Shown: piece after piece, positions 4,763 through 64,000 of the stretch | Position numbering within the stretch: the first letter of the stretch is position 1 | Layout: each line of letters begins with the position of its first letter | IMG/VR virus record: IMGVR_UViG_3300032007_001727 | Reading direction: 5' to 3' (one strand) | Length of the DNA stretch: 64,000 nt | Source: a virus | Taxonomy: Duplodnaviria; Caudoviricetes | Position numbers and translations under genes: made by a program | Notes under the pieces: model-generated | Told to the model about the DNA's origin: nothing | Seen by the model: the letters and a program-made list of their open reading frames with translations, nothing else | The model's database searches: none

Positions 4763-5092
4763 ATGACAATAGAGAAACTTATACATATTGAAAGGGCATT
4801 ATTGGAGATTGAATCAAGATACAAGTTTGTCCTACCGTTTAACGATGTCATAAGGCTCAAAACATTGTTGGATGAAATAGATGTCATCACAGACACTTTC
4901 ATTTCCTTACAAGACGAATATGCGTTGAAATACGATGACGTTGACAAACTTAGGGAATACCATGATAGACTTATCAATGAGAACATTGACTATGATAGGT
5001 TCAACGCGGTATTGTTTATATCAAACGTCTATGCCACGATTGCGGATGATGATTTCAAGCAACTTGTAGATGAACTTGGCATATTGAAGTAA
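4763..5092 (+). CDS. Hypothetical protein
   Basis: ATG at 4763 after an AT-rich leader preferred over the TTG start at 4706. Confidence 0.7.
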   Translation: MTIEKLIHIERALLEIESRYKFVLPFNDVIRLKTLLDEIDVITDTFISLQDEYALKYDDVDKLREYHDRLINENIDYDRFNAVLFISNVYATIADDDFKQLVDELGILK

Positions 5093-5104
5093 AATTTTGA
5101 ATTT

Positions 5105-6079
5105 ATGGCTGAAAAGAAAACATTGGAACACTTTTTAAATGAAATGAAGGAAATTCATAATGAATTGGATTTCAGTTTGGTGACGGAGTATGTAAGTAAT
5201 AATACAAAAGTAAAGGCAATATGCCATTGTAAGGATTATTTAGGTAGAGAGCACGGGGAATTTGAAATAACCCCGGCAAACCTAATAATGGGTAAGGGAT
5301 GCCCAAAATGCAAAGGCAAGGGGTTTACATCCGAAGATAGGAAAATGTTCTGTGAGAAGAAATATAATGGATTATATGATTACTCAAAGGCTGATTTCTC
5401 GACGGTTAAGAGGAAAACTACCGTAATCTGTAAGGAACACGGAGAATTTGAGATTAATTATGACCATCATTTCAATAACGGTGTCAAATGCCCATATTGT
5501 TCCTATCCTTCTAGGGATACGGAATCATTTAAGTTGGAAGCAATTAAGAAACATAATAATTTCTACAGTTATGACAAGGTAGATTATAAAGCATCCCTTA
5601 AAAAAGTGATTATAACGTGTCCGATTCATGGTGATTTTGAACAAACTCCAAATGCACACCTTAATGGTCAAGGCTGTCCCAAATGTGCTACTAGTACACT
5701 GATATTGGAGGAGACAATCAAAAGAGGTCTAGAAAGTGAAAGTATTAATTTTACACAAAACTTTAAACCATTGTGGCTGAAAAGAAAGGCTAGAGGCAAT
5801 TTGTCCTTGGATTTCTACATAGAAGACTTAAAACTTGCAATTGAGTGTCAAGGCAAGCAACATTTTGGTCTAGGCGGTTGGTCTGAGCACTTCAATTTTG
5901 ATGAACAGTTTGAGCGAGATAGGTGGAAAATGGAGCAATGTGGGGCAAATGGCATTGAGTTGGTCTATTTTGCAAGGCAAAAAGAGGCCCCGTCAGAATA
6001 TTTTGGTAAAATTTTTACTGATTTTTGTGAATTAATGGAACATATCAGATATTTATATAATAAAAAGGCATCAGCCTAA
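5105..6079 (+). CDS. Putative homing endonuclease: 3 Zn-ribbon repeats plus Vsr/PD-(D/E)XK-like nuclease domain
   Basis: Repeats of YDYS...C..HG.F...H..G.GCP.C; C-terminal LDFY...IECQGKQHF. Confidence 0.8.
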   Translation: MAEKKTLEHFLNEMKEIHNELDFSLVTEYVSNNTKVKAICHCKDYLGREHGEFEITPANLIMGKGCPKCKGKGFTSEDRKMFCEKKYNGLYDYSKADFSTVKRKTTVICKEHGEFEINYDHHFNNGVKCPYCSYPSRDTESFKLEAIKKHNNFYSYDKVDYKASLKKVIITCPIHGDFEQTPNAHLNGQGCPKCATSTLILEETIKRGLESESINFTQNFKPLWLKRKARGNLSLDFYIEDLKLAIECQGKQHFGLGGWSEHFNFDEQFERDRWKMEQCGANGIELVYFARQKEAPSEYFGKIFTDFCELMEHIRYLYNKKASA

Positions 6080-50831: not shown

Positions 50832-53039
50832 ATGGCAAAAATCAATGATGATTTACTGAAATATTTTGATGGCGATGAAATGGCATCAAATGTTTGGCTG
50901 AATAAATATGCAATGAGGGATGAAAACGGTGAATTAATAGAATCGACCCCGGATGACATGCATAGAAGAATGGCAAAGTACTTTGCCGATGTTGAGGAAA
51001 AGTATGAGTTTAACGAAGAGGAAAACGTTAAACTGAAATTGAGTGAATATGGCTACAACAGAGGCAAACTTACCGAAGAAAAAATCTATTCTCTTTTCAA
51101 GGACTTTAAATATATTGTTCCGGGCGGTTCTGTCATGTGTGGTTTAGGCTCACCGCTAGCAATTAGCCTCTCTAATTGCTGGGTAATTGATGGTCCAGGT
51201 GACAGTATAGATGACATCTTTAGGGTTTGCAATGAACAGTCTCAGTTGTTTAAGAGAAGAGGTGGAAACGGGTTCGATATATCGAAGTTGAGACCAAAGG
51301 GTGCGAAGGTAAGCAATTCTGCAAAATATTCCACCGGTGCCGTATCCTTCATGGACTTGTTCAGCAACGTGACAAATACCATCGCCCAAAGCGGAAGAAG
51401 GGGTGCCCTTATGCTTTCAATGCACGTGGAACATCCGGATGCGGAGGAGTTTATTGAGAAGAAGCAAGACCTTTCAAAGGTTACCGGTGCAAATATCTCG
51501 TTGCAGATAGGTGATGACTTTATGAATGCCGTGGAGAATGATGAGGACTTTATTCAGAGGTGGCCAATCACTTGTGAGGTCAACGTTGACCCTAGTTGGG
51601 AATATGACACCTTGTACGAGTCCAAGGATTCGAACGGTAAGACTTGCTATTTCAAGAAGGTAAAGGCGAAGAGGTTGTGGGATAAATTAATCCATTGTGC
51701 TTGGAATACGGCCGAACCCGGCATCATCTTCAAGACAAACCACTATGAATATTCACCGGACGGTGTGTATGATGAATTCCGTGGCAGTTCCACGAATCCG
51801 TGTGGAGAGATTTTTATGCATGAGGATTCTTGCAGACTCATCCACGTAAACCTTTCTTCTTTTATTGATGACGAGTATTCTGAGAATGCAAAGGTGAACG
51901 ACGAGAAGTTGTATGAAGTGTTCTATGAGGCCACTAGGTTAGGTGATGATTTGGTTGATTTGGAAAGGGATGCCATTACAAAGATTCTCAATAAGATTGA
52001 AAAAGACGGTGACAAGAATAATAATGAATATAAACTGTATAGCCGCTTACTTAAGAATACATTAGCCGGAAGAAGGTGCGGCGTTGGATTCTTCGGATTG
52101 GCTGACGCTGTCGCAAAATTGGGCTTTAAGTTTGATTCTGATGAGAGCCTTAAGGCAATTAACCATATGATGAGGATTATGTTCGTTGCAGAAATTGACT
52201 CAGAGATTGACATGTCAATCACAAGGGGTAGTTTCCCGAACTATAATCCGGAATTGGAGAAGGCCGGAAACAGATGGTATAACCACTTGAAGGATGATTT
52301 CAAGCACTTATACGACAGAATGATGAAATATGGCAGGAGAAACGTATCATTCAGTACGGCAGCACCTACCGGTTCTGTTGCGATGCTTGCACACTGCTCT
52401 AGCGGTATAGAACCCATATTTATGCCATTCTACACAAGGAGGGTTAAATGCACGACACCAAACGACAAGGTTGACTTTGTTGACAAGGACGGTGAGAAGT
52501 TCACGGAATATATTACGGTACACCATCCTTTGGAAGAGTGGGCAAAGAACACATTGAACGTCGATACAAGCGAATTGAAGGTAAAGGATTGGCAAGACAT
52601 ATATGAGAAGTCACCTTGGTATAAGTCAACCGCAAACGATATCGATTGGGTAAAACGTGTTAAAATCCAAGCAATATGCCAGTGCTATGTGACACATAGC
52701 ATTTCTAGTTGCGTTGTTAAAGATACATTCATTGAACTTGAAAATGGCGGCTACGCATATATTGATGAGTTATGTGACTTTTCAGCCATAAACGAAGGGG
52801 AATTTAAGGATAACACATCGTTTGAAACATTGGTTAAGACTTGTGACGGAACTAATAATAGGATTAAGTCATTCTACAATAACGGAGTAAAAGATGTGTT
52901 TGAGTTAAAACTTACGAATGGGTTATCAGTCGAGACCACGTCAAATGAACGTTTCATGGTCTATAACGATGAAAAATCAGAATTTGATTGGAAATATCTT
53001 TATGATATTAAAGAGGGTGACATAATAAAAATTCAATAA
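50832..53039 (+). CDS. nrdJ: Class II (B12-dependent) ribonucleotide reductase, N-terminal part fused to a split N-intein
   Basis: LSNCWV, RRGG.G.D.S.LRP, RRGALM, TNPCGE, APTGS..M...SSGIEP; extein ends HSISS, then intein Cys1 at 52710. Confidence 0.92.
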   Translation: MAKINDDLLKYFDGDEMASNVWLNKYAMRDENGELIESTPDDMHRRMAKYFADVEEKYEFNEEENVKLKLSEYGYNRGKLTEEKIYSLFKDFKYIVPGGSVMCGLGSPLAISLSNCWVIDGPGDSIDDIFRVCNEQSQLFKRRGGNGFDISKLRPKGAKVSNSAKYSTGAVSFMDLFSNVTNTIAQSGRRGALMLSMHVEHPDAEEFIEKKQDLSKVTGANISLQIGDDFMNAVENDEDFIQRWPITCEVNVDPSWEYDTLYESKDSNGKTCYFKKVKAKRLWDKLIHCAWNTAEPGIIFKTNHYEYSPDGVYDEFRGSSTNPCGEIFMHEDSCRLIHVNLSSFIDDEYSENAKVNDEKLYEVFYEATRLGDDLVDLERDAITKILNKIEKDGDKNNNEYKLYSRLLKNTLAGRRCGVGFFGLADAVAKLGFKFDSDESLKAINHMMRIMFVAEIDSEIDMSITRGSFPNYNPELEKAGNRWYNHLKDDFKHLYDRMMKYGRRNVSFSTAAPTGSVAMLAHCSSGIEPIFMPFYTRRVKCTTPNDKVDFVDKDGEKFTEYITVHHPLEEWAKNTLNVDTSELKVKDWQDIYEKSPWYKSTANDIDWVKRVKIQAICQCYVTHSISSCVVKDTFIELENGGYAYIDELCDFSAINEGEFKDNTSFETLVKTCDGTNNRIKSFYNNGVKDVFELKLTNGLSVETTSNERFMVYNDEKSEFDWKYLYDIKEGDIIKIQ
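52710..53039 (+). other. Split intein N-fragment (109 aa)
   Basis: Block A CVVKDTFI, NGVKDVFELKLTNG, block B TTSNERF, end DIKEGDII then stop. Confidence 0.85.
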
Positions 53040-53112
53040 TTCTTTAAAAAAATTTATCTCATTGTATATTTATATATATAAATAATTTTAATAAATATGC
53101 AATGAGATAAAT

Positions 53113-54339
53113 ATGAATGAAAGTCAGAAAAAGAGGATACAAAAACTAATAGAAATGGGTTTGTATCATGAGCCAAAAATAATAAAGGGCGTATGTAAAT
53201 TATGTGGAAAGGAATATGAATATGACGAGAACAATAAAGTAGTTAGACAATACTTTACTAACGGCTTTTGTTGCAATAAATGTTATCAAGATTCCGGTTT
53301 AAAGTTAATTAATAAAATTAAAACGACACTGACGAATGCAAATATGCCGTTTAATGATGAAAACATCTTAGAAGTTTTTTCAGAGTATCAATCAAATAGA
53401 ACTAAAAAGTGTGCTGACACTTGGAGGAAGACAATGGTTGAGAAATATGGAACAGACTATGCCACCAAGAGAGGAAAAATGGGATGGGATGGCCACAAGA
53501 AGAAATTTTTAATTGAAAACAACATAATTTCAGAAGATGATTTTTCAAAATTAAGTGAGGAGGAAATTGATGACTTATTTATTAGTAACTTCAACAAAAT
53601 AACCAAACATGGTGAACACGTTGTTAATGGTAGAAAAAGTAAATACGGAGAAGATTACAAGAAATCATTCCAAGATGCACTAGTAAAAAGCGTAACCAAC
53701 CTAATGGAGAAGAAATACGGGAAAGAATATTTAGATGGACTATCTGATTCTGAATACCAAGAGGTTTACAATGAATGTTCAACTGAAATAAATTCGAAGA
53801 AGGTTGTAAAGGATAGAATTGAATGGAAGAAGAGTACATTGTTGAACCACGGCTTCGATAAAGATTCATTGGACAAATGCAGTTCAGATGAAATTGAAAA
53901 GTTCTATTCAGAATATTTGTCAAAGAGAAAGACAAAACTTGTTTGTTCCGAAAAGAATGGGTATAAACATTCTGAAAAGGGTTGGTACAATTTTGATAAG
54001 TGGGATAAGTTTTTCTACCGTAGTAGTTGGGAAAAGCGATTATGTGAAGAATTGGACGCTAATTGTGATTTAATTGAAAATGTCATGGTTCCGGAACCAA
54101 TCTATTATAAGTTAAATGGTGTTACACATGCCTATTTTTGTGACTTTGAAATTTTATTTAAAAATGGTTTCAGACTATTCATAGAAGTCAAACCGGAAGG
54201 AAAATTAAAAGAATTAGTAAATGAGTGTAAAATAAATGCGGCAAAGGAAAAATGGGGTGACTCATTTATTGTTGCAACTGAGCATGAAATTTTTTCAAGT
54301 GATTTAAAAAATTTATTAATGAAATATGGAAAAGATTAA
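53113..54339 (+). CDS. Free-standing putative homing endonuclease (TnsA-like PD-(D/E)XK domain) between the nrdJ halves
   Basis: N-terminal CKLCG..FCCNKC Zn finger, repeated EKYG motifs, C-terminal YRSSWE...EP..Y....H.Y..DF...IEVKP. Confidence 0.75.
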   Translation: MNESQKKRIQKLIEMGLYHEPKIIKGVCKLCGKEYEYDENNKVVRQYFTNGFCCNKCYQDSGLKLINKIKTTLTNANMPFNDENILEVFSEYQSNRTKKCADTWRKTMVEKYGTDYATKRGKMGWDGHKKKFLIENNIISEDDFSKLSEEEIDDLFISNFNKITKHGEHVVNGRKSKYGEDYKKSFQDALVKSVTNLMEKKYGKEYLDGLSDSEYQEVYNECSTEINSKKVVKDRIEWKKSTLLNHGFDKDSLDKCSSDEIEKFYSEYLSKRKTKLVCSEKNGYKHSEKGWYNFDKWDKFFYRSSWEKRLCEELDANCDLIENVMVPEPIYYKLNGVTHAYFCDFEILFKNGFRLFIEVKPEGKLKELVNECKINAAKEKWGDSFIVATEHEIFSSDLKNLLMKYGKD

Positions 54340-55348
54340 AGAAATTGAGTCTATTTGTCTAAGTGATGAAAGAATACCGTTTGAATTTAGAAAAAATGGT
54401 GACTCTGTGAAAGATTTTCTTGAAACCATTAAGAACAATGGTTTTGTTGTGACGAACAAGGATGTTAAAAGACTCATGAAAATGTATGACACAAAAAACG
54501 AAACATTTTCAATTGTTGAAAACATTTCTTATGTTGGGGTGAAGGAAACCGTTGATTTGGAGGTTGAAAATACTCATAGTTATGTAGCAAATGGAATAGT
54601 TGCCCATAATACAATAAATCTTCCGAACGACGTGAAAGAAAGCGAGGTGGCGGAAATATATAGGGAATCTTGGAAACAAGGACTTAAGGGTATTACCGTA
54701 TATAGGGATGGATGCAGAAGCGGTGTCTTTGTATCAGTTGACAAGAAGGACACACCGAAGAAGGACTTGAACCTTGAACTCATCGAGAGCGGTACCGCAA
54801 AGAGGAGGCCAAAGACATTGGAGGCCAAGATTATACGCTTCAGCAACAAGGGTGAAAAATGGGTAGGCATAATAGGAATGCTAGACGGAAAACCGTATGA
54901 ACTCTTCACCGGAATGCTTGATAAACTGAATATCCCGAATTGGGTTGACAACGGTTCCATCATCAAGAACTATGATGAGATTGAGACTGACGGTGAAGTG
55001 AAGAAGAAATCACGATACGATTTCTGCTATAATGACAAGGACGGGTATAAGGTATGTATCGAAGGTATATCTAGGATATTTAACCCCGAGTTTTGGAATT
55101 ACGGCAAACTAATCAGCGGCTTGTTAAGGCATAATATGCCCATACCTTATATAATAAAGGTGATTTCAACCCTTAAGTTGGATGATTCCTCCATAAACAC
55201 TTGGAAGAACGGTGTTGTTAGGGTTCTCAGAAAGTTTGAAGACTCTGCTGAATTGGAGGGTGAAAAATGCCCGGAATGTGGTGGAAGGCTAGTTAGGGAC
55301 GGCGGATGCATTCACTGCGTTGACTGCGGATACAGTAAGTGTTTATAA
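54326..55348 (+). CDS. nrdJ: Split C-intein fused to the NrdJ C-terminal part
   Basis: Blocks F/G TVDLEVENTHSYVANGIVAHN ending at 54610, then TINLP...LKGITVYRDGCR, RPKTL, C-terminal Zn ribbon CPECG...C..CGYSKC. Confidence 0.9.
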   Translation: MEKIKEIESICLSDERIPFEFRKNGDSVKDFLETIKNNGFVVTNKDVKRLMKMYDTKNETFSIVENISYVGVKETVDLEVENTHSYVANGIVAHNTINLPNDVKESEVAEIYRESWKQGLKGITVYRDGCRSGVFVSVDKKDTPKKDLNLELIESGTAKRRPKTLEAKIIRFSNKGEKWVGIIGMLDGKPYELFTGMLDKLNIPNWVDNGSIIKNYDEIETDGEVKKKSRYDFCYNDKDGYKVCIEGISRIFNPEFWNYGKLISGLLRHNMPIPYIIKVISTLKLDDSSINTWKNGVVRVLRKFEDSAELEGEKCPECGGRLVRDGGCIHCVDCGYSKCL

Positions 55349-55361
55349 AAACTGATTTCTC

Positions 55362-56306
55362 ATGTTAATGGATATTATTTTGAATAAACCGTCAGTTAAC
55401 ATCAACTTGGATTCTGACGGTTTATTTTCCTACCTATTTTTGAAATTGGCTTCATATAAGGGTCATATAAGCGGGTACAGCAACAGCAACGACCTAATCT
55501 TAAGTGAATACCCAATTGATGATTTATGGAGTGATTTCTATGTTGACTTGTTCACGCCGAAGCCGAATGCCACAACAATTGACCAACATGTCATATCTAA
55601 CTCAAACGGTATTTCCTTTCCGGAGACAAAAATAAATCCTCATATATTGATTGAGAACCATATTGCAAATAACCCCAAAAGTTATTGCGGCAAGTTCCCG
55701 TTTTCAACATCAATATTCATGTTGGGTCTCTGTGAAAGGGAAGGAAAGATTTCAGACGATGTCGGTCTTTTTGAAAACATTGACTATAAGAATAATTTTT
55801 TTGGTGGCTATGGTATTACATTGGCAGATTTGCTGCTACGTGCCGACGGATGCCTCCTAAACCGTTGCCAATATGAAAGGAATGTCTCATATTGGAAAGA
55901 CAAGATGATTGAGTTCTCCAACGGCGGTATTAATACCGAAAGGGTATTGGAATACTTGGTAAGGATGCCGAGGGAAGAGGCACAAGTAAAACACGGTATT
56001 ATAAGCAACGGTTACTTTAACTATGGGCTTTCAAAGGACGGCGGCTATAACGGACGCATTGACTTGGAAGAAAATCTTAGGCTGATAGTGAATTTGTTTA
56101 GGTCGATTTCAAAATACTTGAACGTTCTAGTAAAGGAATGCGAGACTACATTATATAAATATATAGGGGTGGTTCGTGATGCAAAATCAGACTTGACGGA
56201 AGATTTGTCATCGTTTGACACATATGCCTTCACTAGGAATAATCAGATAAAATATACAACAGACTTTAAATGTTGTGATAAAATAACTTTTAAAAATTTT
56301 AATTAA
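55362..56306 (+). CDS. Possible DHH-like phosphoesterase
   Basis: NLDSDG, YVDL, IDQH, INPH occur in DHH motif order. Confidence 0.45.
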   Translation: MLMDIILNKPSVNINLDSDGLFSYLFLKLASYKGHISGYSNSNDLILSEYPIDDLWSDFYVDLFTPKPNATTIDQHVISNSNGISFPETKINPHILIENHIANNPKSYCGKFPFSTSIFMLGLCEREGKISDDVGLFENIDYKNNFFGGYGITLADLLLRADGCLLNRCQYERNVSYWKDKMIEFSNGGINTERVLEYLVRMPREEAQVKHGIISNGYFNYGLSKDGGYNGRIDLEENLRLIVNLFRSISKYLNVLVKECETTLYKYIGVVRDAKSDLTEDLSSFDTYAFTRNNQIKYTTDFKCCDKITFKNFN

Positions 56307-56307
56307 T

Positions 56308-56676
56308 ATGTCCGTACAGTATTTTTTGGACAAGCCAATTGTAATTGGCGACTTGAAAAAAGTTGGTTTGGTGGTTGAGGACCACAGAAAAAATATGAAA
56401 CATCATCCGTTCACCGTCTCAAACGGTCAAGATACGGTGGCAATAAGTTCAATTGATGAAAATGGTGAAGGCAATGACGATGAACTCACAATAAAAGAGT
56501 TTGAGGGAAGATTCTCACACGGCGGAGCAAGCGTTATGCTTGAAATATGCGATAAACTTGATTGCAAGTTCATTACAGATGAGGATATTGATGAGTTGTT
56601 TTACACTGATGGTGATACCATTACGAAGGAAATGTACGATGATAGAACTGAGCGGTTCAGAGAATATCTCAAATGA
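56308..56676 (+). CDS. Hypothetical protein
   Basis: 122-aa ORF closing the operon. Confidence 0.7.
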   Translation: MSVQYFLDKPIVIGDLKKVGLVVEDHRKNMKHHPFTVSNGQDTVAISSIDENGEGNDDELTIKEFEGRFSHGGASVMLEICDKLDCKFITDEDIDELFYTDGDTITKEMYDDRTERFREYLK

Positions 56677-56684
56677 GGTCTATT

Positions 56685-56717
56685 GGAGTTGACAATTGTC
56701 AACTCCTTTTTTTTTTT
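56685..56717 (+). terminator. Rho-independent terminator
   Basis: GGAGTTGACA/TGTCAACTCC plus T11; insulates the CRISPR locus from the upstream operon. Confidence 0.85.
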
Positions 56718-56737
56718 GCAAAATAATTGTGATAATA

Positions 56738-56769
56738 TTTGTTTTTTTCAAATTTTTTATATATCTTTG
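56738..56769 (+). promoter_or_regulatory. Bacteroidota-type promoter driving the RNA-array-effector unit
   Basis: TTTG at 56738, TATCTTTG at 56762, 20-nt spacing. Confidence 0.75.
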
Positions 56770-56770
56770 C

Positions 56771-56954
56771 ACCGTTAGTATTAAAACACTAGCCTACCCA
56801 CAGTGTAAGTGGGGACGTTAAGTCCGCGTACTAGGCTGTTGAGGAGTGCTTTAGTGAAAGTATCTTTCTCACGTCTAGGTTTAAACGGAAAGAAAATGTG
56901 CAAGCAGGACTTGCGCAACCATTATTAAAATTTAGTGGAAACATTTGATACAAC
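56771..56954 (+). ncRNA. Putative structured scaffold RNA (tracr/omegaRNA-like)
   Basis: Non-coding and GC-richer than other intergenic regions; stems AGCCTA/TAGGCT, CCCAC/GTGGG, GGAC/GTCC, GTGCTTT/AAAGTAT, GTGCAAG/CTTGCGC, CCATTA/TAGTGG; ends in repeat-like TACAAC. Confidence 0.55.
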
Positions 56955-56985
56955 TTATTGATTGTCATTCAATTACGTGTGGTGT

Positions 56986-57454
56986 GGTGTTAATTCCACT
57001 TATCTTAAGGTGGGTTACAACTACATCCCAATACTTTACTACGTGAACTTGGTGTTAATTCCACTGATTGTAAAGTGGATTACAACCTTAGAGAGGAATA
57101 ATAAAAATCCAAAGAAGGTGTTAATTCCACTGATTGTAAGGTGGATTACAACCAACTCCCAAAGAAAATACACAAAAAGTTTGGTCTTAATACCACTTAT
57201 TTTAAGGTGGATTACAACACATGAATTAAGTTCATAGATGGTGTTAATTCCACTCATCTTAAAGTGGATTACAACAATCTAAATGAATATCAACACCCGT
57301 GAAAATGGTGTTAATTCCACTGATTTTAAGGTGGATTACAACCTACCTATCACTCAGAATCAAGTGTTAATTCCACTGATTGTAAGGTGGATTACAACTG
57401 TCATTGGGAATTGCCGGTGTTAATTTCACTTATCTTAAAGTGGATTAATACAAC
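56986..57454 (+). CRISPR. CRISPR array: 8 repeats (consensus GGTGTTAATTCCACTGATTGTAAGGTGGATTACAAC, 36 nt) and 7 spacers
   Basis: Repeats start at 56986, 57051, 57117, 57183, 57240, 57307, 57363, 57416 (last one degenerate, 39 nt); unique spacers of 29, 30, 30, 21, 31, 20, 17 nt. Confidence 0.92.
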
Positions 57455-57490
57455 AATGTATTTGAGTTACAACAAATTAGATTGTCAAAT

Positions 57491-58993
57491 ATGACAAAAG
57501 AAAAAATCTTACGTGGTATTAAATACCGCTTTTTTCCAACGGAAAAACAAAAAACATACATTAACGCTATGTTTGGTGCAAAACGTTTTTTTTATAATAA
57601 AACGTTAGAAACCTATTTGTCCCTTGAAAAAGAGAACCGTGAAATAAAAGAGTATAATAGCACCCATGAGGATAAGAAGGAACCAATTGCGTATTCTTTG
57701 TTATTAAACAACGGAAAACCAAACCCAAACTATAGCAAAAACTCTCTAATACAAAGGGGATTTGATGGCTTTTATGGTGAAGTAAAAGATTATTCTTGGC
57801 TAAAGAATTATTCATCTACCATATATCAAAATGAGATTGCTAATTTGGGTAATTCTTGGAAGACTTTCTTTAAGTCCCTAAAGACGAAAAATAAAGTAGG
57901 AAAGCCTAAAATGAAAAGAAGGAATTCGGTTAATTCCATAACCTTGCAGAACACATCTTCCTTGAAGGACGGTAAGAATATTATGGATTGGAAGAATAGC
58001 CGAATAAAAACCCCGGGTTTTAATAAATTGGGTTGGTGCAAATGTGAATTGCACAGAAGATTCAAAGGCATGGTCAAGGAGACAACAATATCTAAGGATA
58101 TTGATGGTTCATACTATATTTCCCTAATAGTTGAGAGTGAAGGCTCATACCCACAGCCTAGCGGTGAAGTCACAAAGGAAAATACTATAGGTATTGATTT
58201 TGGCCTAAAGACACTTGCTACCATTTCCAATGCAAACGATGATAGCAATAACTATGAAAAGATTGTTCCATCATATTTTGCAAAGGTATGTGATTTGGAG
58301 AAAAAAATCAATAGGCTCAAGGCAAAGAGAACTCTATGTCAAGCAACACTGACAAGGGAGGGGTGTGAATCCAAGGTCTTAACCATAAAGCAGATGGATA
58401 AGGCTAGAACCAACAATAAAAGGGCTTTCAGTGGATACCATATCACCTATTCAAAAGGTTATGAGGAATATACCAAGAGGATAAACAAACTTACGGTCAG
58501 AATCAATAACATTAAGAAAAACTACACTGGTGAGGAGGCAAGTTCGATTGTAAATCGTGATTGTGCCAATGCAATCTGCGTTGAAACCCTTGATATAAGG
58601 GGCATGTCCATAAGAAATAAGACAAGGGAGGCCGAAGGCAAGAAGATTCCAAATAAAGTCAAAAGGAGAAGGAAAATGGCCCATAAATTAGGACAATTGG
58701 CCATCGGTAGTATAATCTCTCAAATAGAATATGACTCCATAAAGGCAGGAAAACACTTTATAAAGGCCCCGGCAAACTATGCTTCCACAAAGATTTGCAA
58801 TTGCTGTGGTCATAAACTTGAAGACATTGGACTAGATGTTCGGAAATGGGTTTGTCCGGTTTGTGGACAAGAGCATGACCGTGATGTAAATGCCGCAAAA
58901 AATTTGGCAAAGTATGCCTATGCCTTAAAGAATGACATCGATTTGAAGGATATTTACCACAAAGTTGAGGCTGAGGTAATGGCTGAACGATAA
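57491..58993 (+). CDS. CRISPR-associated TnpB-like RuvC nuclease (candidate miniature type V effector, 500 aa)
   Basis: N-terminal TnpB HTH GIKYRFFPTEKQK...FGAKRFFYN; RuvC-I IGIDFG, RuvC-II ICVETL, Zn finger CNCCG..CPVCG, RuvC-III HDRDVNAAKNL; starts 36 nt after the array. Confidence 0.85.
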   Translation: MTKEKILRGIKYRFFPTEKQKTYINAMFGAKRFFYNKTLETYLSLEKENREIKEYNSTHEDKKEPIAYSLLLNNGKPNPNYSKNSLIQRGFDGFYGEVKDYSWLKNYSSTIYQNEIANLGNSWKTFFKSLKTKNKVGKPKMKRRNSVNSITLQNTSSLKDGKNIMDWKNSRIKTPGFNKLGWCKCELHRRFKGMVKETTISKDIDGSYYISLIVESEGSYPQPSGEVTKENTIGIDFGLKTLATISNANDDSNNYEKIVPSYFAKVCDLEKKINRLKAKRTLCQATLTREGCESKVLTIKQMDKARTNNKRAFSGYHITYSKGYEEYTKRINKLTVRINNIKKNYTGEEASSIVNRDCANAICVETLDIRGMSIRNKTREAEGKKIPNKVKRRRKMAHKLGQLAIGSIISQIEYDSIKAGKHFIKAPANYASTKICNCCGHKLEDIGLDVRKWVCPVCGQEHDRDVNAAKNLAKYAYALKNDIDLKDIYHKVEAEVMAER

Positions 58994-59008
58994 GGATAAT
59001 ATGAAAAA

Positions 59009-59036
59009 AAGAGCAACCATAACTGATTGCTCTTAT
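59009..59036. terminator. Bidirectional terminator
   Basis: AAGAGCAACCA...TGATTGCTCTT between convergent genes. Confidence 0.7.
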
Positions 59037-59049
59037 ATTTTAAATTTTT

Positions 59050-59640
59050 TTAATAATTATGGTTATTATAACCACCATAAAATCTTGGCTGTTCACCAAA
59101 CACAAACTGAACATCCCTTGTTGTGATACGCCCACTCCGTATTAACAAATCAACATCCCTTTCAGTGATGTCATATGGCTCTTTCCCCCCTTTTATCATT
59201 TTCGCCCATTTATCAAGTTTTTCTTCCCTTGACGAACCACTACGACGTGGTTCTTCCTTATATTGATTTTCAAATTCAAAATCAAGACATTTCTCTCTGT
59301 TTGCAGACCTAACTTGCTTAATTGAGTATTCAAGTTGTTCCGGCTCTACTCCGCAAATTCTTCTAACCTTATGTGGGCTACCAAAATCAATATCCGGTGC
59401 AACGTTTACTACCCATTTATCCGAATTGGCAATCTTACCATACCATTTATTTGCCCTAGGATTATATGCGTATTTTAAGGCTAATCGACGATTATAAAAA
59501 TATATATAATCTCCGGATACCATCGCAAACCACCTCTCACTAGAGTCGATATATCCATTTTCCTCTTTTAATAACTTTTTTACAGATTCTTTTACGATTC
59601 TGTGAAGGTCTGACTCTGTCAATCTAATTTTTCTTTTCAT
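59050..59640 (-). CDS. Hypothetical protein with an IRLTESDLHRIVKESV leader (possible head-internal protein)
   Basis: N-terminal LxE-rich leader; upstream GATATTTAT motif. Confidence 0.7.
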   Translation of the reverse strand: MKRKIRLTESDLHRIVKESVKKLLKEENGYIDSSERWFAMVSGDYIYFYNRRLALKYAYNPRANKWYGKIANSDKWVVNVAPDIDFGSPHKVRRICGVEPEQLEYSIKQVRSANREKCLDFEFENQYKEEPRRSGSSREEKLDKWAKMIKGGKEPYDITERDVDLLIRSGRITTRDVQFVFGEQPRFYGGYNNHNY

Positions 59641-60990: not shown

Positions 60991-61460
60991 CATTATGACG
61001 AGGGAAGAATTCATAAAGAAAGCCCAAGAGGCTCACGGTGATAAATACGATTATTCGAAAATTCCAAGCGAACTGAAGGCAAGCGACAACGTTGTGATTG
61101 TTTGCCCCATTCATGGTGAATTCACACAGAATGCTAGGACACATTACAGAGGTCACGGTTGTCCAAACTGTAAGGCGGAAAAGACAAGACAATTCTTGAC
61201 ATTGACAACTGAGACCTTTCTGAAGAAGTATCATGATAAATTCGGTGATGAGTATGATACTTCATTGGTTGATTACAAAGATTTTGAGACAAAGGTTAAA
61301 ATGATTTGTCCAATTCATGGCGTATGGGATTAACATCTGCTGAATGAAAAATATTCATTTATATCAAAAAATATTCAAAAATAAGTAAACTTTTTAAAAT
61401 TACGTGATATTTATATATGAATATTAAGATAAATAATAAAAGAATAAGTGAACTTATTTT

Positions 61461-61787: not shown

Positions 61788-63428
61788 ATGCTTATTCAGA
61801 GTAAGTACACAAAGATATTCCATTCAAAGGACTTAACTCGTCAGAAATATGATGAGTTATATGACTTTGCTGTGCTTATTCGAAACCATAAAAACACAGT
61901 ATCACAATACGTCAACGACAATCTCTTACATTTCTTGGAATACAATAAATTTCAATTCCTTAAGGAAATGAGAGAACGTTTCAAGAATGTAATACCAAGT
62001 TCATTTGATGCACAACTCTATACACAAGTATTCACTTGCTATCAGAATAAATTTGATGGAATACAACGCAAACTGATATTTGAAGTAAAAACATTTAAAG
62101 GGTTTGAGTTCTACAAGCGTGATACAAAGAAGAATAAGAAAGGTGACTTAAAGAAAGTAATAGCCGAAAAGAAACAAACACCATTATCTAACTGCCTCAC
62201 TTATCTTGCAAGATACGGAAATGAAAACACAATAGACTATATAAGTAGTAATATAGATGTTTGTGATGAGAAGAAACGTGAGTTCTATAACAACATATTA
62301 AGATGCTGTAATAAATTCGGATTTGAACGGTTGTATCGATTAGCATTGAACAAAAGACAACGTGTTGTTAAGCATTATTCTGAATATCCTATTGAATTCA
62401 AGTCATTAACGTTCAATGGTAGGTGTAGGAAGAAAAGGATAATTGACTACAACAGAAAGTTTGACTCTGTTATCAATTCATTCATAAGCCTTAGTGGTAT
62501 TGGACGTAAATCATTTGATATACCGATTACATTCAACAAAGGTTGGCACGGAAATATGAAGGATTACAGAAAGAAGAATCCCGATTACGAATATACAATC
62601 ACTTTCAATGAGAAAGAACATCAAGTAAACATCCATTTATGCAAGGATGGAGAAAGGTATATTCCCCAAGCCAATGGCAATACAATAGGTATTGATGTCA
62701 ATTGCAAGCATAACTTATTCAGCCTATCAAATGAAGCAACTTACGATTATGATAGAAAACTCGTCAATGATTTCTGTAAATTATCACTTGAAATTGACAA
62801 ACTTAAAGAAAATGATAAAGAATACAAGGTCGGTAAGCGTAAACAGCAGAAACTTGATACTCTCAAATCCAAGATGATTAAGTCTGAGCAGCAACTTATT
62901 GCTGATATGTGCAAGACGTTACAATCGCAAGGTGTTGGGCATATTGTGATGGAAGACCTTGATAATGGTTTCGGTAAGTGCTATGTTAAAGACAAGGATA
63001 ATGAGGATATTAATTACAACAGAAAGGTTAAGTTTCTTGGCTTGAGTAGTCTTAAACAAGAAGTTGAGCATATTGCAAGAAAATATGATATTGCGGTTTC
63101 AACTGTTCAAGCAAGTTATACATCGAAGATGTGTCCTATGTGTGGATGTATTGAGGATGAGAACAGACCAAACCAAGAGACTTTTGAGTGTATTAAATGT
63201 GGACATAAAGATAATGCAGACTTTAATGCTGCAAAGAACATAAGGAACAGAGTGCTCGTAACCGTGTTACAAGATTTGCTCTTAAAACAAAAGGATAATG
63301 GTGCTTTTGAGCCTAAGAAACTTAAACGTGAGAAGGTAAAGGAGGTATTGTTATCGTTTCGAAGAAGCCTACAAAATGTAGGAAGTGAATGTACAGAAAG
63401 TAGTGTGACTACTTTTGACTATGTTTAA
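61788..63428 (+). CDS. tnpB: TnpB RNA-guided nuclease (IS607-associated, 546 aa)
   Basis: IGIDVN, IVMEDL, YTSKMCPMCG...FECIKCG, NADFNAAKNI. Confidence 0.9.
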   Translation: MLIQSKYTKIFHSKDLTRQKYDELYDFAVLIRNHKNTVSQYVNDNLLHFLEYNKFQFLKEMRERFKNVIPSSFDAQLYTQVFTCYQNKFDGIQRKLIFEVKTFKGFEFYKRDTKKNKKGDLKKVIAEKKQTPLSNCLTYLARYGNENTIDYISSNIDVCDEKKREFYNNILRCCNKFGFERLYRLALNKRQRVVKHYSEYPIEFKSLTFNGRCRKKRIIDYNRKFDSVINSFISLSGIGRKSFDIPITFNKGWHGNMKDYRKKNPDYEYTITFNEKEHQVNIHLCKDGERYIPQANGNTIGIDVNCKHNLFSLSNEATYDYDRKLVNDFCKLSLEIDKLKENDKEYKVGKRKQQKLDTLKSKMIKSEQQLIADMCKTLQSQGVGHIVMEDLDNGFGKCYVKDKDNEDINYNRKVKFLGLSSLKQEVEHIARKYDIAVSTVQASYTSKMCPMCGCIEDENRPNQETFECIKCGHKDNADFNAAKNIRNRVLVTVLQDLLLKQKDNGAFEPKKLKREKVKEVLLSFRRSLQNVGSECTESSVTTFDYV

Positions 63429-64000
63429 TTCTTCGGAAATGACACCGCATGATTTGATGCGTGGAAAGGGGTGCCCGGTTTGCGGCACGGAACAAGGACA
63501 CTTATCAAAGCGTCTTGAACGTGATGAGGTATTGAAGCGGGCGGAAGAGTTGCATGGTGGAAAATATCTCTATGATAGGTTTGTTTATACTAGAATGTGT
63601 GACAAGGGTATAATCACTTGTCCAATTCATGGTGATTTTAAACAGACCATGAGAAAGCATCTATCCGGTAGTGGATGCCCAAAATGCGGCTATGAAAGGA
63701 ATGCAGACACCTTCAGAATACCGATAGATAAAGTCATTGAGAAATGCGAGAAGGTTCACAATGGCAAATATCAATATTTAAAGGATTTTGACTATTTCAA
63801 TAATAAGACTCGTTTGCATATAGTTTGCCCAATTCATGGTGAGTTTTGGCAAGAGGCAATTGCTCACTTTCATGGTCAAGGATGCCCGGAGTGTGGTAGG
63901 GAAGAAGCAGCCCGTAAGTTACGAAAAGATAAAGAGCACATGATAAAAAGGGCAAGAATTGTGCACGGGGACAAATATTCGTATGATAATTTTGAGTATG

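What the first reader, a model, noticed from the sequence alone, without database searches (positions are those of the whole stretch)
56771..56985. Structured leader RNA ending in a repeat-like ACAAC plus a spacer-sized 31 nt: a natural single-guide?
Seen: nested stems CCGTT(56772)/AACGG(56884), AGCCTA(56791)/TAGGCT(56832), CCCAC/GTGGG, GGAC/GTCC, GTGCTTT/AAAGTAT, GTGCAAG/CTTGCGC. These are followed by CCATTA...TAGTGG...TACAAC (ends 56954), which mimics the repeat hairpin and 3' end. Exactly 31 nt then precede repeat 1. TAGTGGAAACA could also pair with the 5' arm of the repeat. Normal CRISPR leaders are AT-rich and unstructured. Inference: an omegaRNA-like scaffold relocated upstream of the gene, acting as a fused scaffold+guide and/or as a tracrRNA for the array - an intermediate between omegaRNA and crRNA:tracrRNA.
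Basis: partly seen in the sequence, partly recalled or inferred. Interest (0 to 1): 0.85.

Follow-up and report, generated by a model that had tools for sequence, protein, structure and literature searches.

The report
Phage TnpB-CRISPR tracrRNA derived from omegaRNA
The structured "leader" is a conserved guide-RNA scaffold, descended from a transposon omegaRNA, that ends in an anti-repeat and most likely serves as the tracrRNA for a miniature CRISPR array and a TnpB-like nuclease in a large phage; this is a natural transposon-to-CRISPR intermediate of a kind described recently.

Summary
Window 56771-56944 is a conserved, covariation-supported RNA with helices P1 to P6. It sits behind a Bacteroidetes-type promoter and is followed, with no terminator, by eight repeats and a 500-aa TnpB-like nuclease with an intact RuvC triad.

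A covariance model finds the same scaffold in nine related phage or metagenome loci. It also finds it, at lower score, at the canonical omegaRNA position on the 3' end of ordinary tnpB genes. In one protein subclade the scaffold lies downstream of the gene, as an omegaRNA does. In the window's subclade it lies upstream.

Two contacts with the repeat are supported:
- **Anti-repeat.** 56918-56952 (P6 plus 14 nt) pairs with nt 1-29 of this locus's own repeat at -20.6 kcal/mol, against -7.6 to -12.7 for foreign repeats. The family-wide permutation test gives 0 of 20000.
- **Pseudoknot.** The P2 loop UGUAA pairs with UUACA at -7..-3 of the repeat. The canonical omegaRNA has GAGC:GCUC at -6..-3.

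So the "repeat-like hairpin plus ACAAC" is an anti-repeat. The 31 nt is a junction or loop that shares AATTACGT with relative L003; it is probably not a guide.

This is a TranC / type V-U-like system: a new member of a known kind. The scan's own notes had already flagged this stretch.

The parts
56685..56716 (+). Intrinsic terminator of the upstream gene; it insulates the unit
   Evidence: 9-bp stem followed by a T run
56738..56769 (+). Bacteroidetes-type promoter: TTTG (56738-41), 20 nt, then TATCTTTG (56762-69)
   Evidence: The same TATCTTTG box stands just before the scaffold in L001, L003 and L166. In the downstream-type loci L002, L083, L170 and L171 it stands just before the effector ATG. 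Reading the motif as a promoter rests on outside knowledge of Bacteroides promoters.
56771..56944 (+). Conserved scaffold RNA, helices P1 to P6. P1 56774-79/56788-93. P2 56797-801/56809-13. P3 56831-36/56873-78. P4 56841-52/56857-70. P5 56897-904/56910-17. P6 56919-24/56933-38.
   Evidence: Covariance-model hit of 48 bits (E 5e-9) with a model built from other loci only, and 110 bits with model R2. Covariation.
56802..56808 (+). P2 loop AGUGUAA; UGUAA is the proposed 5' strand of a pseudoknot with the repeat's 3' end
   Evidence: Pairs with UUACA at -7..-3 of the repeat. Compensatory variants occur in L003 (UGUAG:CUACA), L002 (UGUG:CACA) and the canonical omegaRNA L424 (GAGC:GCUC).
56918..56952 (+). 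Anti-repeat: P6 plus the next 14 nt, including most of the 'repeat-like' TACAAC
   Evidence: RNAduplex gives -20.6 kcal/mol with repeat nt 1-29, against -7.6 to -12.7 with the repeats of seven other loci. Family-wide permutation test: 0 of 20000. Antisense local alignment p = 0.088 here and 0.002-0.012 in five relatives.
56955..56985 (+). 31-nt junction between the anti-repeat and repeat 1; proposed connecting loop, not a spacer
   Evidence: AATTACGT (56971-78) is shared with L003 at the same offset from repeat 1. An RUUAY motif lies about 15 nt before repeat 1 in all loci. No target found.
56986..57454 (+). CRISPR-like array of 8 repeats (36 nt; the last is 39 nt and degenerate). Spacers are 29, 30, 30, 21, 31, 20 and 17 nt.
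   Evidence: Repeats start at 56986, 57051, 57117, 57183, 57240, 57307, 57363 and 57416.
57491..58993 (+). 500-aa TnpB-like RNA-guided nuclease (P0001 plus the initiator Met)
   Evidence: NCBIfam guided_TnpB 1e-58. The family profile matches ISDra2 TnpB at 1e-46, Cas12n 9j09 at 1e-37 and LaTranC at 7e-30. D235, E364 and D464 are invariant across the family.
59009..59034 (-). Terminator-like hairpin at the end of the unit, called on the minus strand

Best explanation
The element is the tracrRNA-like scaffold of a phage-borne CRISPR system built on a TnpB (TranC / type V-U-like).

One transcript probably starts at about 56773-56777. It would run through the scaffold (P1-P5), an anti-repeat (56918-52), a 31-nt junction, eight repeat-spacer units and the nuclease mRNA.

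The scaffold descends from a TnpB omegaRNA. Each repeat supplies what a stand-alone omegaRNA carries at its 3' end. Repeat nt 1-29 pair with the anti-repeat, which corresponds to omegaRNA stem 4 or the Cas12f repeat:anti-repeat duplex. UUACA at -7..-3 pairs with the P2 loop to close the pseudoknot next to the guide. The spacer is the guide for the RuvC nuclease.

Shown here: conservation, covariation, homology to omegaRNA, co-evolution of anti-repeat and repeat, and an intact catalytic triad.

Inferred: transcription, processing, RNP assembly, DNA cleavage, and whether the first unit also folds in cis with the 31 nt as its loop.
For: - **Scaffold conservation.** A model built only from L001 and L166 finds window 56771-56944 (48 bits, E 5e-9), L003, L083 and L167. 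Model R2 adds L170, L168/L169 and the new locus L292.
- **Covariation.** 94% of cells are paired and 30 of 33 pairs change on both sides. Slid controls give 28-43%.
- **Homology to omegaRNA.** Over (180 loci, nearly all ordinary tnpB), every hit of model R2 at E <= 0.1 lies on the 3' end of a tnpB gene on its own strand: L424/L437, L442 and L090, besides L373, which is the array-bearing locus L292 again. L424 and L442 diverge exactly after ..UCAC, which marks the scaffold/guide boundary.
- **Pseudoknot.** Loop GAGC pairs with GCUC at -6..-3 in the omegaRNA, and UGUA(R) pairs with (Y)UACA in the repeats. This is the geometry published for ISDra2 (PMC10097598).
- **Anti-repeat.** Own-repeat duplexes average -20.2 kcal/mol against -13.1 for cross pairs, and 0 of 20000 permutations do as well. 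The window ranks its own repeat first. Antisense similarity is significant in five relatives.
- **Operon logic.** The promoter box sits before the scaffold or before the gene according to layout. No terminator lies inside the unit.
- **Effector.** TnpB-like along its whole length with an intact D-E-D triad.
- **Clade structure.** The family is one clade (SH-aLRT 99) with layout-specific subclades.
Against:
- Taken alone, the window's anti-repeat is weak by sequence identity (p = 0.088). It was missed when only the last 50 nt were tested.
- The window's array is irregular, with spacers of 17-31 nt and variant repeats, so the locus could be decaying.
- The covariation counts were made on model-fitted alignments of only nine sequences.
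- P6 is conserved as a hairpin, yet the anti-repeat model requires it to open in the window.
- No spacer target was found.
Confidence: 0.8

Rival explanations
1. The scaffold is a complete cis omegaRNA. P6 plus UACA-AC (56949-54) closes the pseudoknot within the same molecule, and the next 31 nt (56955-85) act as a hard-wired 'guide 0'. This would operate alone or alongside the tracrRNA role.
For: - P6 resembles the last hairpin of the canonical omegaRNA in L424, which is followed directly by the pseudoknot strand, AC and the guide.
- TACA[AG]C after P6 arises in only 1.1% of shuffles.
- 36 + 31 nt equals one array period.
- From my own recollection of Jin et al. 2025, which I could not read here, TranC effectors can use both reRNA and CRISPR RNA.
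Against: - 10 nt separate P6 from UACA, against 1-2 nt in the repeats and in L424.
- L001, L166 and L003 have no UACA after P6.
- The TACAAC is explained by complementarity to the repeat's 5' end GGUGUU.
- Part of the 31 nt is conserved with L003, which is unlike a spacer.
- No target was found in the window or in IMG/VR.
Confidence: 0.12
2. A decaying or inert relic. The RNA is a fossil omegaRNA left beside a degenerating array and no longer works with the nuclease.
For: Spacers are irregular (17-31 nt), repeats vary, and the last repeat is degenerate. The window's anti-repeat carries wobbles and bulges.
Against: - Helices keep pairing through compensatory change across proteins only 33-58% identical.
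- The nuclease ORF and its catalytic residues are intact.
- The promoter box and the terminators are conserved.
- The window's anti-repeat still prefers its own repeat by 8 kcal/mol or more.
- Relatives with regular arrays also hold occasional short spacers.
Confidence: 0.06
3. An unrelated cis-regulatory leader, such as a riboswitch or attenuator, that controls the downstream operon.
For: The position is a 5' leader. A terminator-like hairpin lies at 57513-29, early in the coding region.
Against: No Rfam family matches. In the sister subclade the same RNA lies downstream of the gene, and in canonical tnpB loci it overlaps the 3' end of the gene. Neither fits a 5' regulator.
Confidence: 0.02

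Closest known systems
TranC (transposon-CRISPR intermediate) systems; Jin et al., Cell 2025, cited in PMC13565253, PMC13639567 and bioRxiv 10.64898/2026.03.27.714800
   Same: A TnpB-like nuclease with a CRISPR array and no adaptation genes. The ancestral reRNA/omegaRNA is divided into a tracrRNA-like scaffold and a crRNA.
   Different: The protein is nearer to ISDra2 TnpB (1e-46) than to LaTranC (7e-30). Which TranC clade it belongs to, if any, could not be checked. In the window the order is scaffold, array, gene on one presumed transcript. The hosts are large phage contigs.
ISDra2 TnpB with its omegaRNA (OMEGA system; PDB 8h1j/8bf8; PMC10097598)
   Same: Similarity along the whole protein. 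The multi-stem scaffold has a pseudoknot formed by nucleotides -6..-3 next to the guide. A stem directly precedes that strand.
   Different: No TnpA or transposon ends were seen. The guide-proximal module is repeated as an array. The scaffold is not on the 3' end of the gene in the window. The protein has about 90 extra residues in three insertions.
Cas12f (type V-F) tracrRNA:crRNA
   Same: The repeat pairs with the tracrRNA in two places: a repeat:anti-repeat stem and a pseudoknot beside the guide (as summarised in PMC10097598). The repeat ends in ..CAAC.
   Different: The effector is only distantly related (E 1e-8 to 1e-11). Whether it acts as a dimer is unknown here.
CauTranC9 and TranC clades 3, 11 and 20 (bioRxiv 10.64898/2026.03.27.714800)
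   Same: Compact CRISPR-associated TnpB-like nucleases, one of them from a Caudoviricetes genome. Repeats are 32-38 bp, arrays are short and no cas accessory genes are present.
   Different: That study found a consistent tracrRNA in only two clades.
Type V-U* candidate groups (Altae-Tran et al. 2023, PMC10691335)
   Same: Independent associations of TnpB with CRISPR arrays, without Cas1 or Cas2.
   Different: That survey found arrays almost always downstream of the gene. The window's subclade has the array upstream.

Membership tests
TranC / TnpB-derived type V CRISPR system | TnpB/Cas12-family effector with an intact RuvC D-E-D triad | tested here: met
   guided_TnpB 1e-58. D235, E364 and D464 are invariant in 15 family members. 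ISDra2 TnpB matches at 1e-46.
TranC / TnpB-derived type V CRISPR system | A CRISPR array is associated with the effector across relatives | tested here: met
   Arrays of 4-10 repeats stand next to the gene in the window, L001, L002, L003, L083, L163, L166, L168, L172 and L292.
TranC / TnpB-derived type V CRISPR system | Scaffold RNA derived from the transposon reRNA/omegaRNA | tested here: met
   The scaffold model hits the 3' ends of canonical tnpB genes (L424/L437 35 bits, L442, L090). The pseudoknot geometry is shared.
TranC / TnpB-derived type V CRISPR system | tracrRNA anti-repeat complementary to the repeat | tested here: met
   Own-versus-cross duplex energies: permutation 0 of 20000. 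The window gives -20.6 kcal/mol and ranks its own repeat first. The identity-based test on the window alone gives p = 0.088.
TranC / TnpB-derived type V CRISPR system | Effector nested among TnpBs in a phylogeny | tested here: inconclusive
   The family is one clade (SH-aLRT 99) inside an unresolved TnpB backbone. This is a quick tree only; the careful search did not finish.
TranC / TnpB-derived type V CRISPR system | RNA-guided DNA cleavage with crRNA:tracrRNA (and with reRNA) | not testable with these tools
   Needs biochemistry or an interference assay.
IS200/IS605 OMEGA element (mobile TnpB with omegaRNA) | omegaRNA overlaps the 3' end of tnpB, with a single guide at the transposon right end | tested here: not met
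   In the window the scaffold lies 547 nt upstream of the ATG, with an array in between.
IS200/IS605 OMEGA element (mobile TnpB with omegaRNA) | TnpA, transposon ends, or several copies | tested here: not met
   The window holds one scaffold copy. No Y1 transposase lies beside the unit; only L172 keeps a Y1_Tnp fragment. The neighbourhood (nrd genes, gp13-like gene) recurs in L001, L163 and L167. The whole genome is not held.
Any Rfam family | Match at the gathering score | tested here: not met
   Best hits in 56000-59500 score 14-22 bits against thresholds of 45-75 bits.

The most novel reading that the evidence does not exclude
The leader is a bifunctional natural single-guide in which the omegaRNA has not yet split at the first unit. 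In cis, scaffold, anti-repeat, 31-nt loop and repeat 1 would fold into a complete omegaRNA-like guide that uses spacer 1, or possibly the 31 nt as a fixed guide 0. After processing, the same scaffold would act in trans as tracrRNA for repeats 2-8. The whole RNA module moved from the 3' to the 5' side of the gene once, within a lineage of large Bacteroidota-type phages.
Probability: 0.3. Interest if true: 0.7.

Novelty: new member of a known kind. Interest (0 to 1): 0.55.

Why it matters
This locus supplies sequence-level links that are usually lost in the change from omegaRNA to tracrRNA:crRNA:
- The same covariance model detects the CRISPR-associated scaffold and canonical omegaRNAs.
- The pseudoknot strand can be followed from the omegaRNA 3' end into the CRISPR repeat.
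- Two sister subclades show the RNA module on either side of the gene.

The nuclease is compact (500 aa). The proposed guide architecture (scaffold, anti-repeat, pseudoknot) makes single-guide design and compensatory-mutation tests straightforward.

It also adds a phage-borne case. That bears on whether phages were vehicles for the domestication of TnpB. The general concept is already published as TranC, so the value lies in a well-resolved example, not in a new principle.

Tried and rejected
- **Rfam.** Nothing near threshold.
- **GenBank phages.** No DNA match. Proteins reach at most 27.5% identity.
- **Single-protein locus search in IMG/VR.** No relatives.
- **GTDB genome contigs.** Only ordinary TnpBs with best-segment identity of 21-33%.
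- **Loose DNA motif scan.** Among the 80 listed loci, only L292 gave a significant covariance-model hit.
- **MAFFT plus RNAalifold.** Helices were misaligned and gave weak consensus structures. I replaced this with a hand-structured model and iterated.
- **Anti-repeat test on the last 50 nt of the tail.** Negative for the window and L166. It excluded P6.
- **Whole-scaffold RNAduplex.** Too permissive to be informative.
- **Sense 'degenerate repeat 0' reading.** Only 13 of 36 identities by hand count. Sense local alignment was mostly not significant.
- **Spacer and 31-nt target searches.** No exact 24-mers in IMG/VR. Within the window the only result was a 13-nt seed match of spacer 2.
- **Array turnover.** L168 and L169, and likewise L163, L164 and L165, carry identical spacers.
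- **Whole genome.** Not held.
- **Literature.** The Jin et al. paper and the bioRxiv supplements are not held.
- **Missing DNA.** No sequence could be fetched for the closest relative P0003 or for P0005.
- **Phylogeny.** The careful tree search did not finish, so I used the quick tree.

Full report
**What is there**

Window 56685-59034 is an insulated unit. In order it holds:
- a terminator (56685-716);
- a Bacteroidetes-type promoter, TTTG then 20 nt then TATCTTTG (56738-69);
- about 214 nt of non-coding sequence (56772-56985);
- eight 36-nt repeats with spacers of 29, 30, 30, 21, 31, 20 and 17 nt (56986-57454);
- a 500-aa ORF (57491-58993);
- a terminator-like hairpin.

No terminator separates the RNA region, the array and the gene.

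The ORF is a TnpB-type RNA-guided nuclease. NCBIfam guided_TnpB scores 1e-58, with Pfam HTH_OrfB_IS605 and the Cas12f1-like TNB domain. A profile of the family matches ISDra2 TnpB along its length at 1e-46, Cas12n 9j09 at 1e-37, LaTranC at 7e-30 and Cas12f at 1e-8 to 1e-11. Three family-specific insertions add about 90 residues. The RuvC residues D235, E364 and D464 are invariant.

The surroundings are phage-like: exonuclease, DnaB-like helicase, an intein-bearing ribonucleotide reductase and a head-tail adaptor. The contig is a 107-kb metagenome record.

**Relatives**

Only about 15 protein clusters (33-58% identity) form this family among 5.8 billion clusters; the next hits are ordinary TnpBs. 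None is in GenBank phages or in GTDB genomes. DNA was obtained for L001 (422-kb contig), L002, L003, L083, L163-L172 and later L292 (220-kb contig). All that extend far enough carry arrays.

Two layouts exist:
- **Upstream type:** scaffold, array, gene. Seen in the window, L001, L003 and L166. L163 and L172 also have the array upstream.
- **Downstream type:** gene, scaffold, array. Seen in L002, L083, L168/L169 and L292. L167 and L170 fit it too, but those contigs end in repeat 1.

A quick ML tree puts the family in one clade (SH-aLRT 99) with two subclades that match the two layouts (96 and 100). L292 falls outside on a long branch.

The TATCTTTG box stands before the scaffold in the upstream type and just before the ATG in the downstream type; L168 has it before its downstream scaffold. 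The unit therefore looks like a permuted operon. The downstream layout mimics the usual TnpB-omegaRNA arrangement.

**The RNA is conserved and structured**

MAFFT already showed shared blocks, but it misplaced helices. I gave the L001/L166 alignment a hand-drawn structure and built model R1. Although the window was not in it, R1 found window 56771-56944 (48 bits, E 5e-9). It also found L003, L167, L083 and L170.

Model R2, built from six sequences, then found L170 (46 bits), L168/L169 (30 bits) and L292 (50 bits), none of which were in the model.

On the nine-sequence alignment, 94% of cells are paired and 30 of 33 pairs show changes on both sides. Sliding the partners gives 28-43% paired. The caveat is that this alignment was fitted to the model.

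- CCCAC/GTGGG, GTGCTTT/AAAGTAT, GTGCAAG/CTTGCGC and CCATTA/TAGTGG are P2, P4b, P5 and P6.
- CCGTT/AACGG and AGCCTA/TAGGCT fail in relatives.
- P1 and P3 are the conserved alternatives.

**It descends from an omegaRNA**

R2 was run over 180 further loci, nearly all of them ordinary tnpB genes. At E <= 0.1 its only hits lie on the tnpB strand at the 3' end of the gene: L424/L437 (35 bits, E 2e-6), L442 (20.7 bits) and L090 (19.6 bits). The remaining hit, L373, is the array-bearing locus L292 again.

L424 and L442 are two copies of one element. They diverge immediately after ..GGTAG(C/T)TCAC, which marks the scaffold/guide boundary.

In these omegaRNAs the P2 loop is GGAGC and positions -6..-3 are GCUC or GUUC. 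In the CRISPR family the P2 loop is UGUA(G/A) and the repeats end (Y)UACA-RC. In detail:
- window: UGUAA with UUACA;
- L003: UGUAG with CUACA;
- L002: UGUG with CACA.

This is the position of the ISDra2 pseudoknot, where -5..-3 pair with -105..-103 (PMC10097598). The repeat's 3' end therefore plays the part of the omegaRNA's 3' end, and its partner lies in the scaffold.

**The 'repeat-like' end is an anti-repeat**

I took the region after P5 in each locus.
- Local alignment to the reverse complement of that locus's repeat is significant in L001 (0.004), L003 (<0.002), L083 (0.012), L168 (0.006) and L292 (0.004). It is weaker in L002 (0.07), the window (0.088) and L166 (0.17).
- Sense similarity is mostly not significant.
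- By pairing energy, each region prefers its own repeat: mean -20.2 against -13.1 kcal/mol, and 0 of 20000 permutations do as well.
- In the window, 56918-56952 pairs with repeat nt 1-29 at -20.6 kcal/mol, against -7.6 to -12.7 for the other seven repeats.

The repeat is a hairpin whose ends, GGUGU and ACAAC, are partly complementary. Its antisense copy is therefore also a hairpin ending in something like ..UACA.

**The 31 nt**

This segment aligns with the conserved tail of relatives. It shares AATTACGT with L003 at the same distance from repeat 1, although the repeats and spacers of the two loci differ. Every locus has RUUAY about 15 nt before repeat 1.

In the downstream type the last nucleotides of the tail abut repeat 1 and pair with its start. 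They are predicted to form a cis hairpin.

The 31 nt has no match in the window or in IMG/VR. I read it as a junction or connecting loop.

A cis 'guide 0' is not excluded. TACA[AG]C arises in only 1.1% of shuffles, and P6 resembles the terminal hairpin of L424. However, L001, L166 and L003 lack the strand, and in the window a 10-nt gap follows P6.

**Mechanism**

The following is inferred. The nuclease binds the scaffold. A repeat-spacer unit docks through the anti-repeat duplex and the pseudoknot, reproducing the guide, pseudoknot and stem core of an omegaRNA. The spacer then directs RuvC cleavage. The first unit may assemble in cis. Processing enzymes, the flanking motif and the targets are unknown.

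**Comparison with known systems and novelty**

This matches what is described as TranC: TnpB-like effectors whose reRNA is split into tracrRNA and crRNA (Jin et al. 2025, as cited). It also matches the V-U* groups. I could not read Jin et al. or obtain the published sequences, so clade assignment is open.

The array-upstream layout is unusual according to PMC10691335. I rate the element a new member of a known kind.

The scan's own notes had already flagged this stretch and the whole unit.

Noticed in passing
window 61788-63428 (and 60995-61333, 63415-64000): A second TnpB-like ORF of 546 aa, with the Cas12f1-like TNB domain and PHROG 'transposase' hits. The flanking ORFs share repeated motifs. 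Earlier scan notes read this as an IS607-type element inserted in a homing-endonuclease gene. The scaffold model does not hit here.
   Followed up: partly
window 50832-55348: The ribonucleotide reductase is split. The first ORF ends in an intein N-part, a 408-aa TnsA-like nuclease ORF follows, and the next ORF starts with an intein C-part plus the RNR C-terminus.
   Followed up: no
window 57087-57116 vs 40052: Spacer 2 matches the phage's own DNA for its first 13 nt and for 18 of 30 overall. A 5'-anchored match of this length occurs in about 0.5% of shuffled spacers, and eight spacers were tested.
   Followed up: partly
window 57513-57529: A terminator-like hairpin plus T run lies 22 nt inside the nuclease coding region, over the conserved GIKYRFFPT motif. 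It could be chance or an attenuator that ends pre-crRNA transcripts.
   Followed up: no
window 57465-57474: GAGTTACAAC, a remnant of a repeat 3' end, lies after repeat 8 and 16 nt before the nuclease ATG.
   Followed up: no
L172 1819-2019: A 66-aa fragment of a Y1 transposase (PF01797) lies just downstream of a family member whose array is upstream. It may be a relic of the IS200/IS605 ancestor.
   Followed up: no
L168 about 5050-5250: tRNA-like sequences, read on the opposite strand, follow directly after the array. They were not run through ARAGORN.
   Followed up: no
L003, L083, L166 arrays: Otherwise regular arrays in relatives also hold single short spacers (repeat spacing 55-57 instead of 65-66 nt). 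Short guides therefore seem tolerated across the family.
   Followed up: no
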